From: Patescibacteria group bacterium
GTDB taxonomy: Bacteria; Patescibacteriota; Kazan-3B-28; UBA10110
Assembly: GCA_018817805.1 (NCBI GenBank)
Contig: JAHITC010000033.1
Location: forward strand, 1 to 41,430
Direction of reading: 5' to 3'
Length of the DNA stretch: 41,430 nt
Shown here: one piece after another, positions 7,889 through 19,481 of the stretch
Position numbering within the stretch: the first letter of the stretch is position 1
Layout: each line of letters starts with the position of its first letter
The notes under the pieces: model-generated
Told to the model about the DNA's origin: nothing
The model's input: only the letters and a program-made list of their open reading frames with translations
The model's database searches: none
Translations under genes and position numbers: made by a program

Positions 7889-8003
7889 AATGTATTTAAT
7901 TACCTTTATATTCTACAATACCACAGCCAATTGGGAATCTATTCGTGAATTTAGCTGTGTTACAATATATTATTGTTATTTGAAATCTACGGAGGTGCAT
8001 ATT

Positions 8004-17184: not shown

Positions 17185-17615
17185 GTTCGCTCAAATTGAT
17201 CGACACCAATAATCTCACCAGAGTTGGATGTTAGCTCATCATACTGGTCGTCGCTAATAGCCATTGTAACCTTGTCTTTTTGCACTACTACCTGAATAGT
17301 ATGGTTAGTTTTTTGGCCATCAGGAGATTTACCTTTGCGATTACCATAACCACTACTTGCAGCGCTAAACTTAAATTCGTACATCCAAGCATATTGGCAC
17401 CTTAAACTAGTAGATTGCATAAATTGCAGATCTGTACCATCAAAGACAAATGTTGGCGAATTATATTTCACCCAATTTTCAGCCACAATTCGAGAAGAAT
17501 CCTGGGTATATTTCGAATTAGCTTTATTTCCACTAGTAAAATTAATACTACAACCAGTAAGGGTTACTGTTATTACAATTAACAACACTAATAAATATTG
17601 AAACTTATATTTCAT
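17175..17615 (-). CDS. hypothetical lipoprotein (146 aa)
   Basis: Signal peptide with lipobox LTGC. Confidence 0.65.
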   Translation of the reverse strand: MKYKFQYLLVLLIVITVTLTGCSINFTSGNKANSKYTQDSSRIVAENWVKYNSPTFVFDGTDLQFMQSTSLRCQYAWMYEFKFSAASSGYGNRKGKSPDGQKTNHTIQVVVQKDKVTMAISDDQYDELTSNSGEIIGVDQFERTCQ

Positions 17616-17640
17616 AACTGACTAAATTATACATCACGCA

Positions 17641-17670
17641 TGAAAAGACCCGCGACAAAGCCGCGGGCTT
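17641..17670 (-). terminator. intrinsic terminator ending the ORF-free locus
   Basis: Minus strand GCCCGCG-GCTTTGT-CGCGGGT followed by CTTTTC. There is no minus-strand CDS upstream of it before 19468. Confidence 0.65.
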
Positions 17671-18060
17671 CGGGGCAGAGCACTACCCCGCTAATTGATT
17701 AAACCAACCTCTCTCAATCGACTACAACACTAAACAACGTGTAACTACATTGTGACGTTTTAAGTCACTGATCAACAGAACACAACGGTGGCAAGTGTTA
17801 TTTGCCCATTAGAAGCATGATCTCGACTAATAAATGTGATGGAATTAGAATTATGGACTTCTAATCCTTACATGAATTAGATCTTTAGATCACCTCCTTG
17901 CGTCACCGTCTAGGGGGTCGGTGACGTTTCACCTTGTACTGAGGGTTATTAGATCTCCGCACAATTCTAGGCGGAGGATTTGTCATCTTCTTTGTGCTTG
18001 TGCCCTTATCTTTAGTGACACCTCCATCGATAGGAATATTTATAAAGGTACTTCTTTGCG
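17641..18060 (-). ncRNA. candidate structured non-coding RNA or long cis-regulatory leader of unknown class (5' end uncertain)
   Basis: No ORF longer than 27 codons on the minus strand. Hairpins at 17671-17690, 17841-17867, 17901-17926 (8-bp perfect stem) and 17955-17976. Terminator at 17641-17670. TATAAT boxes on the minus strand at 18061-18071. Confidence 0.4.
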
Positions 18061-18131
18061 ATTATATTATAAACAAATAAATCTTATCTGTATAACAAGC
18101 AACTTCTTGCAACCTGTAATATAATAAGACC

Positions 18132-19481
18132 ATGTCTCTTTCGTTACAATTTCTAGGTGCAGTTGGAGGTGTAACCGGCTCTAATTTCTTAGCAAGAACA
18201 GATACCCAAGCTTTTCTAATCGATTGCGGGCTATTTCAAGGCAACTCGCAAAACCGAGCTCATAACGACGAACCATTTGCTTACGACCCCAAGGAAATAG
18301 ATTTTTTAATTCTTACTCATGCTCACCTCGACCACTGTGGTTTAATCCCAAAACTATACCACCAAGGTTTTAGAGGAAAAATTTATTGTACTCCTGCAAC
18401 CGCAGAGCTAGCTAAAGAAATTCTTTCTGACTCGGCCCATATTAGAGAACATGGTGCCAACGAACTGCAGATTGAAGCCCTATTTTCCTACCAAGACACT
18501 CTCGATGCTTTCAAACTATTTAAAACCTACAACTACAACCAGCCGTTTAAGGATGGAGAAATAAAAATATGTTTGCAAGATGCAGGACATATTTTAGGCT
18601 CTGCCATGGTGGAAGTTTGGGCCTCTGGTAAAAAATTGGTGTTCACCGGAGATCTAGGTAACAGCCCGGTTCCAATCCTGCGCGACCCAACAAAAATCTT
18701 AGAGGCAGACTATGTTGTTTCCGAATCAACTTATGGCAGCAGATTACACGAAGCAGTTGATCTTCGCTCCAAGAAACTAGTAACGGCGATTGAATATGCC
18801 CAAAGACATAAGGCAAAAATAATTATTCCTTCGTTTGCACTAGAGCGAACTCAAGATTTGTTATATATTTTAAATCAATTAAAAAATCAAAAAAAGTTTA
18901 CTAATTTGCCTGTATTTTTAGATAGCCCTCTAGCTGGTAGAATTACAGCTATCTACAAAAAATATACTCCACTTTTTGACGAAGAATTTCAAAAACAACT
19001 AAAATCTGATCCAGATTTGTTTAGCTTCAAAGGATTTAAAGAAACTGCCACGAGAACTGAATCCATGGCACTAAATGATTTAGTCGGCCCAGCTATATAC
19101 ATTGCAGGATCAGGCATGGCTGATGCGGGCAGAGTTCAACATCATATTTTGCATCAAGGTAATAACCCAAATAATCAGATTATATTTGTTGGGTTCCAAG
19201 TTCCCGGCACACTAGGCAGGAAACTAGTAGATGGACTTACCAGAGTACGAGTAATGGATCATTTCATCACAGTGAAAGCCAAAATTGGTTCGATTAATGC
19301 CTTCTCGGCTCATGCCGACCAGAAAGGTGTTTTAAATTGGTTAAATAATTTTAAAACTCAACCTACTGTTTTCCTGGTACATGGAGAACAGAAATCTAGA
19401 GAGATTTTAGCCGAAAAAATTACCAAACAGTTAAAACTTAAAGCGATACTACCAAAGCTAAAACAGACTATCGACCTATAA
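18132..19481 (+). CDS. MBL-fold beta-CASP family hydrolase (RNA-metabolising metallo-beta-lactamase type)
   Basis: LIDCG...THAHLDHCG motif and beta-CASP-like middle and C-terminal motifs (..SAHAD..). Confidence 0.85.
   Translation: MSLSLQFLGAVGGVTGSNFLARTDTQAFLIDCGLFQGNSQNRAHNDEPFAYDPKEIDFLILTHAHLDHCGLIPKLYHQGFRGKIYCTPATAELAKEILSDSAHIREHGANELQIEALFSYQDTLDAFKLFKTYNYNQPFKDGEIKICLQDAGHILGSAMVEVWASGKKLVFTGDLGNSPVPILRDPTKILEADYVVSESTYGSRLHEAVDLRSKKLVTAIEYAQRHKAKIIIPSFALERTQDLLYILNQLKNQKKFTNLPVFLDSPLAGRITAIYKKYTPLFDEEFQKQLKSDPDLFSFKGFKETATRTESMALNDLVGPAIYIAGSGMADAGRVQHHILHQGNNPNNQIIFVGFQVPGTLGRKLVDGLTRVRVMDHFITVKAKIGSINAFSAHADQKGVLNWLNNFKTQPTVFLVHGEQKSREILAEKITKQLKLKAILPKLKQTIDL

What the first reader, a model, noticed from the sequence alone, without database searches (positions are those of the whole stretch)
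17616..18131. 515-bp ORF-free, hairpin-dense locus with its own minus-strand terminator (candidate novel ncRNA or long attenuator leader)
Intergenic spacers elsewhere in this window are mostly under 100 bp. This gap has stops in all minus-strand frames; the longest ORF is a 27-codon basic peptide.

It contains at least five stem-loops, including a perfect 8-bp stem (CGTCACCG/CGGTGACG, 17901-17926). It ends with a GC-rich hairpin plus T-run (17641-17670), and that hairpin cannot serve any upstream CDS.

The divergent plus-strand gene at 18132 appears to start right at its own -10 box, so the region is unlikely to be its 5' UTR. The terminator lies only 26 nt before the lipoprotein-truB gene string. 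A riboswitch- or attenuator-type leader for that operon is therefore as plausible as a free-standing RNA of 350-420 nt.
Basis: partly seen in the sequence, partly recalled or inferred. Interest (0 to 1): 0.6.

Follow-up and report, generated by a model that had tools for sequence, protein, structure and literature searches.

The report
Small basic-peptide gene in structured RNA
The "ORF-free" 516-bp gap in this tiny Patescibacteria genome is a self-contained transcription unit, and its 27-codon reading frame is conserved as protein in relatives, so it is most likely a lineage-specific, dispensable gene for a small, very basic peptide carried on a heavily folded mRNA, not a pure non-coding RNA or an operon leader.

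Summary
Window 17616-18131 is the largest unexplained gap in the window (median spacer 14.5 bp). On the minus strand it has a promoter, many hairpins (fold z = -5.3) and an intrinsic terminator. It matches no Rfam family; RNase P RNA and tmRNA lie on other contigs.

- **Not a leader.** A conserved TGTATAAT promoter sits between the terminator and the lipoprotein ATG. It persists in relatives that lack the unit.
- **Not ORF-free in function.** Three metagenomic relatives carry the same unit. In them the 27-codon frame (17986-17903) is conserved as an Arg/Lys/Pro-rich peptide, core R-[RK]-[ST]-x-N-x-x-Y.
- **Coding evidence.** Against the closest relative pN/pS is 0.39 (p = 0.0002). Indels inside the frame are 6 and 3 nt. 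A mutation-shuffle test gives 3 of 5000. The open antisense frame shows no constraint.
- **Ribosome-site masking.** GGAGG-type ribosome-binding sequences are predicted to pair with CCUCC- or ACCUUU-type stretches in all four RNAs.

The unit is confined to this genus-level clade. It is deleted or replaced in close relatives, and the peptide has no known family. No canonical start codon is conserved. Expression could not be tested.

The parts
18066..18094 (-). Promoter of the unit: -35 TATACA (18094-18089), 17-nt spacer, -10 TATAAT (18071-18066). The predicted transcription start is near 18059.
   Evidence: Consensus scan, 10 of 12 matches. The block ATTTATTTGnTTATAAT is conserved in L098 and L080 and is TATGAT in L099. 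The start site is inferred, not measured.
17643..18060 (-). Predicted transcript of about 418 nt, made of a 5' UTR, the small ORF, a structured 3' region of about 258 nt and the terminator.
   Evidence: Bounded by the promoter and terminator. Fold z = -5.3. Homologous units in L098, L080 and L099 fold at z = -2.9 to -3.5.
18039..18057 (-). 5' element AAAGAAGTACCTTTATAAA, which contains an anti-SD-like ACCUUU.
   Evidence: It is 19 of 19 nt identical between the window and L098 although neighbouring codon third positions vary. It is predicted to pair with GGAGGU of SD1 or with the SD2 12-mer (where two U.G pairs become U-A in L098).
18019..18025 (-). SD1, GGAGGTG, a Shine-Dalgarno-type site upstream of the conserved frame.
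   Evidence: GGAGGTG is present in all four homologues, 5-7 nt (measured from the end of GGAGGTG) before a conserved in-frame AAR-GAT. It is predicted to be sequestered in every homologue.
17903..17986 (-). Conserved small ORF of 27 codons plus TGA: MTNPPPRIVRRSNNPQYKVKRHRPPRR (pI 12, GRAVY -2.0). The true start may lie further upstream.
   Evidence: Homologous frames are seen in L098, L080 and L099. Against L098, pN/pS = 0.39 with Fisher p = 0.0002, and this is the only frame that is both open and constrained. Indels inside the frame are 6 and 3 nt, and the BLOSUM shuffle tests give 1-2 of 5000. The ATG-to-stop part alone gives 3 of 5000.
17973..17977 (-). CCUCC inside the ORF (Pro-Pro codons), the predicted pairing partner of SD1.
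   Evidence: RNAalifold on window + L098 pairs AGGUG of SD1 with the CGCCU that abuts this CCUCC. In L099 the same logic gives a local hairpin, GGAGGUGAUC...GAUCCUCC, in both the minimum-energy and centroid folds.
17901..17926 (-). Perfect 8-bp hairpin CGUCACCG/CGGUGACG. It covers the last ORF codons and the UGA stop.
   Evidence: pair I5. It is kept in the window/L098 consensus, where 4 of 7 predicted pairs are unchanged and 3 differ on one side only.
17888..17899 (-). SD2, AAGGAGGTGATC, a 12-nt perfect complement of the canonical 16S rRNA 3' tail. It lies 3 nt after the stop codon and has no usable start codon behind it.
   Evidence: Its 11-nt core (AGGAGGTGATC) occurs only here in the 617-kb bin. 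L080 has a 14-nt version that overlaps its ORF stop, L099 has a 13-nt version as its SD1, and L098 has only 8 of 12. It is predicted to pair with the 5' element.
17841..17881 (-). Three-part set UCUAAUUC / GGAUUAGAAG / UUCUAAUUCC, which can form two mutually exclusive hairpins.
   Evidence: Read from the sequence. The minimum-energy fold uses the 2:3 pairing, and the window/L098 consensus uses 1:2. UCUAAUU and GGrUUAGAAG are conserved in L098, and GGAUUAGAG in L080.
17752..17768 (-). Hairpin GUGAC-UUAAAAC-GUCAC.
   Evidence: The same core, GUGACUUAAAAUGUCA, forms the terminator hairpin of L099, and L080 has GGCAC-UUUUAA-GUGCC.
17643..17689 (-). 3' end: hairpin GGGG...CCCC (17689-17672), then the intrinsic terminator stem 17668-17648 and the U-run 17647-17643.
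   Evidence: Both hairpins are kept in L098 with compensatory changes, CGCGG/CGCGG becoming CGUGG/CCACG.
17626..17633 (-). Not part of the unit: TGTATAAT, the extended -10 box of the lipoprotein-truB string, 10 nt before its ATG (17615).
   Evidence: Conserved in L080, L098, L099, L077, L082 and L105, including loci that lack the unit. This is the reason the unit is not a leader.

Best explanation
The gap holds one independent minus-strand gene: promoter (18094-18066), an RNA of about 418 nt, and terminator (17668-17643). The RNA is an mRNA, or possibly a dual-function RNA. It carries a short reading frame (17986-17903, perhaps starting further upstream) for an extremely basic, Arg/Lys/Pro-rich, non-hydrophobic peptide of about 27 residues or a few more.

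Translation is probably kept low or conditional. The GGAGG ribosome-binding sequence is predicted to pair with pyrimidine stretches that mimic the 16S 3' tail. These are ACCUUU at the 5' end and CCUCC in the Pro-Pro codons. A second, perfect 12-nt SD-like segment just after the stop codon can pair with the 5' end and close the ORF domain.

Shown here:
- the unit boundaries are conserved;
- the frame is under purifying selection at the protein level;
- folding is well above that of shuffled sequence.

Inferred:
- the RNA is transcribed and translated;
- the start codon;
- the masking switch;
- what the peptide does. My best guess is binding to nucleic acid or the ribosome, because of its charge.

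The gene is accessory. It occurs only in the window's near relatives and has been deleted or replaced in some of them.
For: **Unit boundaries**
- Promoter and terminator scan.
- The same architecture lies in the same slot in L098, L080 and L099.

**Coding signal**
- Aligned frames:
  - window ..TNPPPRIVRRSNNPQYKVKRHRPPRR*
  - L098 ..KNPPPKARRRSRNPQYRIKCRPPRR*
  - L080 ..VVRKTQNTTYAAKRGVGRR*
  - L099 ..SPPQRRTRNPKYLANQGK*
- Synonymous codon turnover at conserved residues: CGG/CGA/CGT/CGT, AGA/AGA/AAA/CGG, TCT/TCG/ACC/ACG, AAC/AAC/AAT/AAT and TAC/TAT/TAC/TAC.
- Nei-Gojobori, window against L098: pS 0.67, pN 0.26, Fisher p = 0.0002. The open antisense frame has a ratio of 1.22, and the other frames contain stops.
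- On an unbiased MAFFT nucleotide alignment the only indels inside the frame are 6 and 3 nt. The in-frame BLOSUM score is 110 against null means of about 56 and 63 (sd about 14.5), reached by 1-2 of 5000 shuffles.
- The signal sits in the ATG-to-stop part, 3 of 5000.

**Structure**
- Fold z-scores run from -5.3 to -2.9 for the four homologues.
- SD occlusion is predicted in all four.

**Not a known RNA or a gene remnant**
- Rfam is negative at gathering thresholds and at E up to 0.5 for the relatives' loci; a single chance-level ALIL match (12.9 bits, gathering score 50) appears in the window at E up to 10.
- RNase P RNA and tmRNA are found elsewhere in the bin.
- There is no remnant of the PCMT gene or the 385-aa gene that fill this slot in relatives.
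Against: - **No conserved canonical start codon.** The window has ATG. L080 has GTG/TTG. L098 has only ATC at that position, or TTG upstream of the SD. L099 has none in frame.
- **Distant SD.** In the window the strong SD1 lies 34 nt before the ATG.
- **Thin data.** There are only four homologues, and one pair carries most of the statistics.
- **RNA-level constraint overlaps the frame.** The CCUCC Pro codons and the 8-bp stem over the stop codon could account for part of the conservation.
- **No other record of the peptide.** It has no hit in Pfam, NCBIfam or PDB, or among 1.84 billion predicted proteins.
- **Unexplained 3' region.** About 258 nt of folded RNA follow the stop codon and are not accounted for by a plain mRNA.
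Confidence: 0.6

Rival explanations
1. It is a purely non-coding structured RNA, a lineage-specific sRNA or large ncRNA. The short frame is never translated, and its apparent protein-level conservation comes from RNA structure constraints and small sample size.
For: - Folding is strong on the minus strand.
- The unit has its own promoter and terminator.
- No canonical start codon is conserved.
- The SD-like segments can be read as helix strands that pair with ACCUUU and CCUCC.
- The 258-nt 3' part has no frame.
- The same genomic slot in genus g5 holds a true non-coding RNA of 590-715 nt with abundant covariation.
Against: - Arg codon switches (AGA to CGG; CGG, CGA, CGT) and Ser/Thr, Asn and Tyr third-position turnover at conserved residues are not explained by pairing.
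- Indels inside the frame are multiples of three, while those outside are not.
- Only the sense frame is both open and constrained.
- The shuffle tests give p of about 2-6 in 10,000.
Confidence: 0.2
2. It is a hok-like, type I toxin-antitoxin-style module. An inert, tightly folded mRNA has its 5' end paired to an internal or 3' segment, so that a harmful small peptide is made only after processing. An antisense RNA would act as the antidote.
For: - A small ORF sits in an mRNA of about 0.4 kb with a sequestered SD and a predicted long-range pairing between the 5' end and SD2.
- The unit is patchy among close relatives: present in the window, L098, L080 and L099, and absent in L082 and L105-107.
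- Promoter-like sites exist on the antisense strand.
Against: - The peptide is strongly hydrophilic, with no membrane helix (GRAVY -2.0), unlike nearly all type I toxins.
- No conserved antisense promoter or terminator could be shown.
- No PADLOC or TA-family search was run.
- The empty sites look like internal deletions of an ancestral unit, which points to loss rather than mobility.
Confidence: 0.07
3. It is decaying, non-functional DNA, left over from an ancestral gene or RNA in a variable slot.
For: - The slot is highly variable. It holds PCMT + tRNA-Ser in L077, nothing in L082 and L105, and a 385-411-aa gene plus a large RNA in genus g5.
- The 3' region differs greatly in length among homologues (about 115-258 nt).
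- ORF starts are inconsistent.
Against: - Promoter, SD, frame and terminator are all retained over a divergence at which beta-CASP identity falls to 69%.
- pN/pS is below 1.
- Fold z-scores are significant in all four.
- There are compensatory changes in the terminator and neighbouring hairpins.
- The genome is otherwise tightly packed.
- No similarity to the genes that fill the slot elsewhere.
Confidence: 0.08
4. It is a riboswitch- or attenuator-type leader that controls read-through into the lipoprotein-truB string.
For: - The terminator lies 32 nt before the lipoprotein ATG.
- Mutually exclusive hairpins exist at 17881-17841.
- The leader-like ORF is rich in Arg and Pro.
Against: - A conserved TGTATAAT promoter sits between the terminator and the ATG and gives a near-leaderless mRNA.
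- The operon and that promoter persist where the unit is deleted or replaced by a tRNA gene.
- The ORF stop is about 235 nt from the terminator, too far for ribosome-coupled attenuation.
- No riboswitch family matches.
Confidence: 0.03

Closest known systems
Dual-function RNAs that also encode a small protein (S. aureus RNAIII/delta-haemolysin, SgrS/SgrT, SR1/SR1P, Spot 42/SpfP; the last from PMC8916003, the others from general knowledge)
   Same: A stand-alone, terminator-ended, hairpin-rich RNA of a few hundred nucleotides. Only a small part (84 nt) is a conserved short ORF. RNAIII, at 514 nt with a 26-aa ORF, is the closest in layout.
   Different: No sequence or family relationship. No base-pairing target is known here. 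The peptide is a highly basic Arg/Pro-rich chain, unlike the peptides of those RNAs. Translation is not demonstrated.
Type I toxin mRNAs with fold-back inhibition (hok/sok, tisB/istR; general knowledge)
   Same: A small ORF in a long, stable, folded mRNA. The SD is occluded. A predicted 5'-end-to-internal pairing closes the ORF domain. Occurrence is patchy.
   Different: The peptide is hydrophilic (GRAVY -2.0), not a membrane helix. No antisense RNA was identified. The empty sites look like deletions, not mobility.
Very small basic ribosome-associated proteins (bTHX, bS22/Sra, bL37; general knowledge)
   Same: Size of about 25-45 aa, pI around 12, Arg/Lys-rich with a C-terminal RPxRR-like tail.
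   Different: Nothing matched in Pfam, NCBIfam or PDB at E <= 10, so no bTHX-type or other ribosomal-protein model was hit. The gene is dispensable among close relatives, which does not fit a core ribosomal protein.
Proline-rich antimicrobial peptides of insects and mammals (oncocin, Bac7, apidaecin; recalled from memory, a lead only)
   Same: A short cationic peptide with P-x-Y followed by a ...R-P-P-R-R tail. By eye, the L098 segment NPQYRIKCRPPRR resembles the oncocin core.
   Different: Not tested. Those peptides are eukaryotic and secreted, and this ORF has no signal peptide. The sequence is low-complexity, so the resemblance may well be chance. L080 lacks the prolines altogether.
Large lineage-specific ncRNA in the same genomic slot of sister genus g5
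   Same: The same position upstream of the lipoprotein-truB string and near the divergent beta-CASP gene (in G004 across a PCMT gene). The same strand, a TATAAT promoter, an SD-like/anti-SD-like long helix, and a 3' hairpin plus terminator.
   Different: It is 590-715 nt long, has no conserved ORF and shows many compensatory pairs. nhmmer finds no similarity in either direction. I treat it as a different gene.

Membership tests
Any Rfam family (riboswitches, T-box, 6S, OLE, GOLLD, ROOL, HEARO, raiA and others) | A covariance-model match at or near the family's gathering score | tested here: not met
   Only a tRNA-Gln matches in the whole window. In the region the sole hit is a 12.9-bit ALIL match at E = 1.1, against a gathering score of 50. 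The three homologous loci and the g5 loci give nothing at E <= 0.5.
RNase P RNA / tmRNA (the usual 350-420-nt bacterial RNAs) | This locus is the genome's copy of that RNA | tested here: not met
   RNase P RNA scores 194 and 191 bits on contigs C37 and C28. tmRNA scores 139 bits on C31. ARAGORN finds no tmRNA in the window.
cis-acting leader (riboswitch or attenuator) of the downstream operon | It lies in the 5' UTR of the regulated gene, with no promoter between the terminator and the gene | tested here: not met
   A conserved TGTATAAT box at 17633-17626 lies 10 nt before the ATG. It is present in all relatives, including those without the unit.
cis-acting leader (riboswitch or attenuator) of the downstream operon | The element co-occurs with the regulated operon across relatives | tested here: not met
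   The operon is intact where the unit is absent (L082, L105-107) or replaced by PCMT + tRNA-Ser (L077-79).
Protein-coding small ORF | The frame is conserved, with an excess of synonymous change and indels in multiples of three | tested here: met
   pN/pS = 0.39, p = 0.0002. Indels are 6 and 3 nt, and 1-2 of 5000 shuffles reach the observed score. Four homologous frames are seen.
Protein-coding small ORF | A conserved start codon at a proper distance from a ribosome-binding site | tested here: inconclusive
   GGAGGTG is conserved in all four. The start codon is not: ATG in the window, GTG/TTG in L080, ATC in L098, none in L099.
Protein-coding small ORF | Evidence of translation (ribosome footprints or detected peptide) | not testable with these tools
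No proteomic data were available.
Type I toxin-antitoxin | A small hydrophobic, membrane-active toxin peptide | tested here: not met
   GRAVY runs from -0.9 to -2.3 and pI from 11 to 12, with no hydrophobic stretch.
Type I toxin-antitoxin | A cognate antisense RNA | not testable with these tools
   There are only weak promoter-like sites on the plus strand, no more than expected from shuffles, and no strand-specific RNA data.
Known small ribosomal or ribosome-associated proteins | A profile match in Pfam or NCBIfam, or a PDB sequence match | tested here: not met
   No family at E <= 10. No PDB chain at E <= 10.

The most novel reading that the evidence does not exclude
The unit could be a ribosome-directed device. 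Its peptide has a P-x-Y...R-P-P-R-R tail reminiscent of proline-rich antimicrobial peptides that plug the ribosomal exit tunnel. Its RNA carries 12-14-nt perfect complements of the 16S 3' tail, which is unusually long for an ordinary ribosome-binding site. Together these could trap or modulate ribosomes, either the cell's own or those of the host bacterium on which such episymbionts live. A related oddity is that the conserved frame appears to begin at AAA-GAU, 7-9 nt after GGAGG, with no canonical start codon in two of four homologues. That would imply unusual initiation.
Probability: 0.05. Interest if true: 0.75.

Novelty: new member of a known kind. Interest (0 to 1): 0.35.

Why it matters
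Patescibacteria (CPR) genomes are extremely compact, and their small proteins and regulatory RNAs are almost unexplored.

- **A gene that annotation misses.** The 84-nt frame is below Prodigal's cut-off. No gene was called on it in any of the homologous contigs. Nothing resembling it exists among 1.84 billion predicted proteins.
- **A caution for the scan.** 'ORF-free, hairpin-dense' gaps can hide conserved micro-ORFs. Checking codon substitution against close relatives is a cheap way to tell.
- **A variable slot.** The position between the beta-CASP gene and the lipoprotein-truB string hosts different fast-evolving RNA genes in sister lineages. These are this unit, a tRNA-Ser, and a 590-715-nt RNA with strong covariation in genus g5.

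The function of the peptide is unknown, so the biological weight of the finding is modest for now.

Tried and rejected
1. **Known RNA families.** Rfam was run at gathering and permissive thresholds on the window and on the homologous loci. It found nothing.
2. **RNase P RNA or tmRNA.** Both are elsewhere in the bin.
3. **blastn of the gap.** Searched against 40 relatives and the own genome, it found only itself.
4. **Pseudogene of neighbouring genes.** tblastn with PCMT and with the 385-411-aa bactofilin-like proteins of relatives gave only noise.
5. **Metagenome pattern scan.** AGGAGGTGATC-N(10-35)-AAGGATTAG gave 15 hits. All were chance hits in unrelated GC-rich contigs.
6. **Homology to the g5 large RNA.** MAFFT was suggestive only at the promoter and 5' end. 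nhmmer was negative in both directions, so I rejected it.
7. **Peptide family searches.** Pfam, NCBIfam, PDB and an exhaustive hmmsearch of 1.84 billion proteins gave one spurious low-complexity hit. Six-frame HMM searches of all 26 genomes of the class hit only the own genome.
8. **Antisense 67-aa ORF (17921-18124, plus strand).** It is also open in L098, but its pN/pS is 1.22 and it is broken in L080, so I rejected it.
9. **TGA recoding or read-through to rescue upstream starts.** TGA ends 5 of 38 long ORFs in the window, so the genetic code is standard.
10. **Frameshift from the GUG inside GGAGGUG.** The frame relation differs in each homologue (0, -1, -1, +1), so I rejected it (by inspection).
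11. **The genome's own 16S 3' end.** GATCACCTCCTT occurs once in the bin, at this locus. The single matches in relatives turned out to be ordinary sites, not rRNA. The anti-SD sequence therefore rests on general knowledge.
Full report
**Setting**

The window is contig C4 of a 617-kb, 45-contig genome bin (88.6% complete). It belongs to a small Patescibacteria class of 26 species genomes.

Gene order around the finding, from Pfam, is:
- murC
- a chagasin-type inhibitor
- a PD-(D/E)XK nuclease
- truB
- a 146-aa lipoprotein-like ORF; all of the above are on the minus strand, ending at 17615
- the 516-bp gap
- a plus-strand beta-CASP/RMMBL hydrolase from 18132
- dus and murG (minus strand).

**Observation**

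- The gap is the largest unexplained spacer in a window whose median spacer is 14.5 bp.
- The minus strand has a sigma-70-like promoter, TATACA-17-TATAAT, at 18094-18066.
- It also has an intrinsic terminator at 17668-17648 followed by a U-run.
- The 8-bp perfect stem at 17901-17926 is real.
- The minus-strand RNA folds far better than shuffled sequence, z = -5.3. The plus strand gives z = -3.9.
- The longest canonical minus-strand ORF is the 27-codon basic peptide.

**What it is not**
- No Rfam family matches at gathering or permissive thresholds.
- The genome's RNase P RNA and tmRNA are on other contigs.
- blastn finds nothing similar in 40 relatives or elsewhere in the bin.
- It holds no remnant of the genes that occupy this slot in relatives.

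**Relatives**

The lipoprotein and beta-CASP proteins were used to pull in syntenic contigs. Three of them carry a recognisably homologous unit in the same place and orientation:
- L098 (beta-CASP 86% identical);
- L080 (81%);
- L099 (69%).

L081 holds only the 3' end of such a unit.

Features shared with the window:
- the promoter block ATTTATTTGnTTATAAT;
- a 5' CCUUUAU element;
- GGAGGTG followed by AAR-GAT;
- the short frame;
- GGAUUAGA-type hairpins;
- a hairpin with a UUAAAA loop;
- a GC-rich terminator with compensatory changes.

All of these RNAs fold better than shuffles, z = -2.9 to -3.5.

Other close relatives differ at this slot.
- L077-79 have a PCMT gene plus a tRNA-Ser(UGA) gene with its own promoter and terminator.
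- L082 and L105-107 have only 80-118 bp between the two divergent genes.
- The L105 spacer keeps short pieces that resemble the unit's 5' end (GAAGTTACC) and its terminator tail (TTGTCGC...TTTTTTT). The empty sites therefore look like internal deletions (by inspection).

Every locus, with or without the unit, keeps a TGTATAAT box about 10 nt before the lipoprotein ATG. That operon therefore has its own, nearly leaderless promoter downstream of the unit's terminator. This removes the attenuator or leader reading.

**The short frame is coding**

Three-frame translation of the four units shows one frame that is open and similar in all:

| Locus | Frame |
|---|---|
| window | ...TKDKGTSTKKMTNPPPRIVRRSNNPQYKVKRHRPPRR* |
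| L098 | ...KKDNHKEKIKNPPPKARRRSRNPQYRIKCRPPRR* |
| L080 | ...IKDKHGVVRKTQNTTYAAKRGVGRR* |
| L099 | ...NKDPPKNSPPQRRTRNPKYLANQGK* |

The evidence for selection on the protein is as follows.
- Conserved residues are written with different codons: Arg as CGG/CGA/CGT/CGT, Arg or Lys as AGA/AGA/AAA/CGG, Ser or Thr as TCT/TCG/ACC/ACG, Asn as AAC/AAC/AAT/AAT, Tyr as TAC/TAT/TAC/TAC.
- For window against L098, Nei-Gojobori counts give pS = 0.67 and pN = 0.26 (ratio 0.39, Fisher p = 0.0002).
- The antisense frame that also happens to be open has a ratio of 1.22. All remaining frames carry stops.
- On a MAFFT nucleotide alignment made without reference to the frame, the only indels within it are 6 and 3 nt. 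Indels outside it are 7, 2, 12 nt and so on.
- The in-frame BLOSUM62 score (110) is reached by 2 of 5000 column shuffles and by 1 of 5000 random-mutation replicates.
- Split by part, the signal lies in the 27 codons from the window's ATG to the stop (3 of 5000). The stretch between the SD and the ATG is not significant, p of about 0.08-0.18.

The peptide has pI 11-12 and GRAVY from -0.9 to -2.3, with no acidic residues in the window copy. It matches nothing in Pfam, NCBIfam or PDB, or among 1.84 billion predicted proteins. A six-frame HMM search of the whole class finds it only in this genome.

**An unsolved point**

No canonical start codon is conserved.
- The window has ATG (17986), preceded only by an A-rich stretch and lying 34 nt after SD1.
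- L080 has in-frame GTG/TTG right at the SD.
- L098 has ATC at the ATG position, behind an AAGGAG.
- L099 has no ATG, GTG or TTG in frame after the TGA that sits inside its SD.

In all four, an in-frame AAR-GAT lies 7-9 nt after GGAGG, where a start codon would be expected. The SD-to-AAR distance varies by non-multiples of three. True SD-led genes in the window use ATG at 8-9 nt. I could not resolve this, and it is the main weakness of the coding reading.

**RNA architecture and likely mechanism (inferred)**

The window RNA contains:
- two GGAGGUG segments: SD1 at 18025-18019, and SD2 within the perfect 12-mer AAGGAGGUGAUC at 17899-17888;
- two segments resembling the 16S 3' tail: ACCUUU at 18048-18043 in a 19-nt block identical in L098, and CCUCC at 17977-17973 in the Pro-Pro codons.

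The predicted pairings are these.
- The single-sequence fold pairs ACCUUUAU with AUGGAGGU.
- The window/L098 consensus pairs SD1 with the CCUCCGCCU region. It pairs the 5' block with SD2, where two U.G pairs become U-A in L098.
- L099 forms a tight GGAGGUGAUC/GAUCCUCC hairpin.
- L080 pairs CUUCC with GGAGG.

In every homologue, then, the ribosome-binding sequence is predicted to be occluded, by different partners. I read this as translational masking of a small ORF. The 5'-to-SD2 helix would close the ORF domain, as in the fold-back inhibition of hok-type mRNAs.

The core of the SD2 12-mer (AGGAGGTGATC, 11 nt) occurs only once in the 617-kb bin. It recurs as a 14-mer in L080, overlapping the ORF stop, and as a 13-mer in L099, as SD1. 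In L098 it is degraded to 8 of 12. It is therefore not strictly required in that form.

Downstream, UCUAAUUC / GGAUUAGAAG / UUCUAAUUCC can form two exclusive hairpins. The rest of the 3' region is variable in length, apart from the last hairpins.

**Verdict**

The locus is real and is a free-standing gene. It is best described as a lineage-restricted, dispensable small-protein gene on a highly structured transcript that may have a second, RNA-level role. It is not an ORF-free ncRNA or an operon leader. Function, start codon and expression remain open.

**Side observation**

In sister genus g5 (G004, G007, G009) the corresponding slot holds a 385-411-aa bactofilin-like gene. Upstream of it lies an ORF-free RNA gene of about 590-715 nt with a TATAAT promoter and a terminator.
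- It has no conserved ORF and no Rfam match.
- Forty of 102 predicted pairs show compensatory changes among only three sequences. These include a helix of about 18 bp capped by an invariant GCCACAGCGC.
- A covariance model of that helix finds it in only these three of 401 sampled Patescibacteria genomes.
- nhmmer shows no similarity to the window's unit.

Noticed in passing
L071:5640-6232 (-), L072:5885-6493 (-), L073:146-860 (+) = G004:C10, G007:C13, G009:C37: Sister genus g5 carries a conserved, ORF-free RNA gene of about 590-715 nt in the equivalent slot, upstream of a bactofilin-like gene, the lipoprotein and truB. It has a TATAAT promoter and a terminator. Forty of 102 predicted pairs are compensatory among three sequences, and a long helix is capped by an invariant GCCACAGCGC. 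It has no Rfam match. A CM of the helix hits only these 3 of 401 Patescibacteria genomes. It is a candidate new large ncRNA.
   Followed up: partly
G000:C37:8120-8561 (-) and G000:C28:391-812 (-): The bin holds two full-length bacterial type-A RNase P RNA matches (194 and 191 bits) on different contigs. This may be strain duplication or contamination of the bin, or a real second copy.
   Followed up: no
L077:5018-6000 (also L078, L079): In a relative whose lipoprotein is 67% identical, the slot holds a PCMT (protein-L-isoaspartate O-methyltransferase) gene plus a tRNA-Ser(UGA) gene with its own TTATAAT promoter and terminator. The window has neither here.
   Followed up: partly
window 17613-17633 (-) and 18120-18134 (+): Both genes flanking the gap start 6-10 nt after a TATAAT box with no Shine-Dalgarno sequence, so they look leaderless or nearly so. 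GGAGG precedes only a handful of genes in the window, for example at 7991 and 30326.
   Followed up: partly
window 17921-18124 (+): A 67-aa GTG ORF runs antisense to the small ORF. The same antisense frame is open in L098, and a 78-aa gene was called there in L099. It shows no purifying selection (pN/pS 1.22) and is broken by stops in L080. It is probably a by-product of the sense frame's codon content.
   Followed up: yes
L115:1495-1530 (G004:C10, about 29212): Read on the opposite strand, a G004 gene is preceded by AAAGGAGGTGATCCAC, 16 nt resembling the complement of the 16S 3' end, followed by ATA and then ATG. Very long SD complements therefore occur before ordinary genes in this family.
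   Followed up: no
window 18132-19481 (+): The beta-CASP/RMMBL hydrolase has Patescibacteria relatives at 57-86% identity. In the species-representative genome scan its best hits were Clostridia and Tissierellia at 40-45%. Precomputed Pfam lists also include Anti-Pycsar_Apyc1 (PF23023) for this protein family.
   Followed up: no
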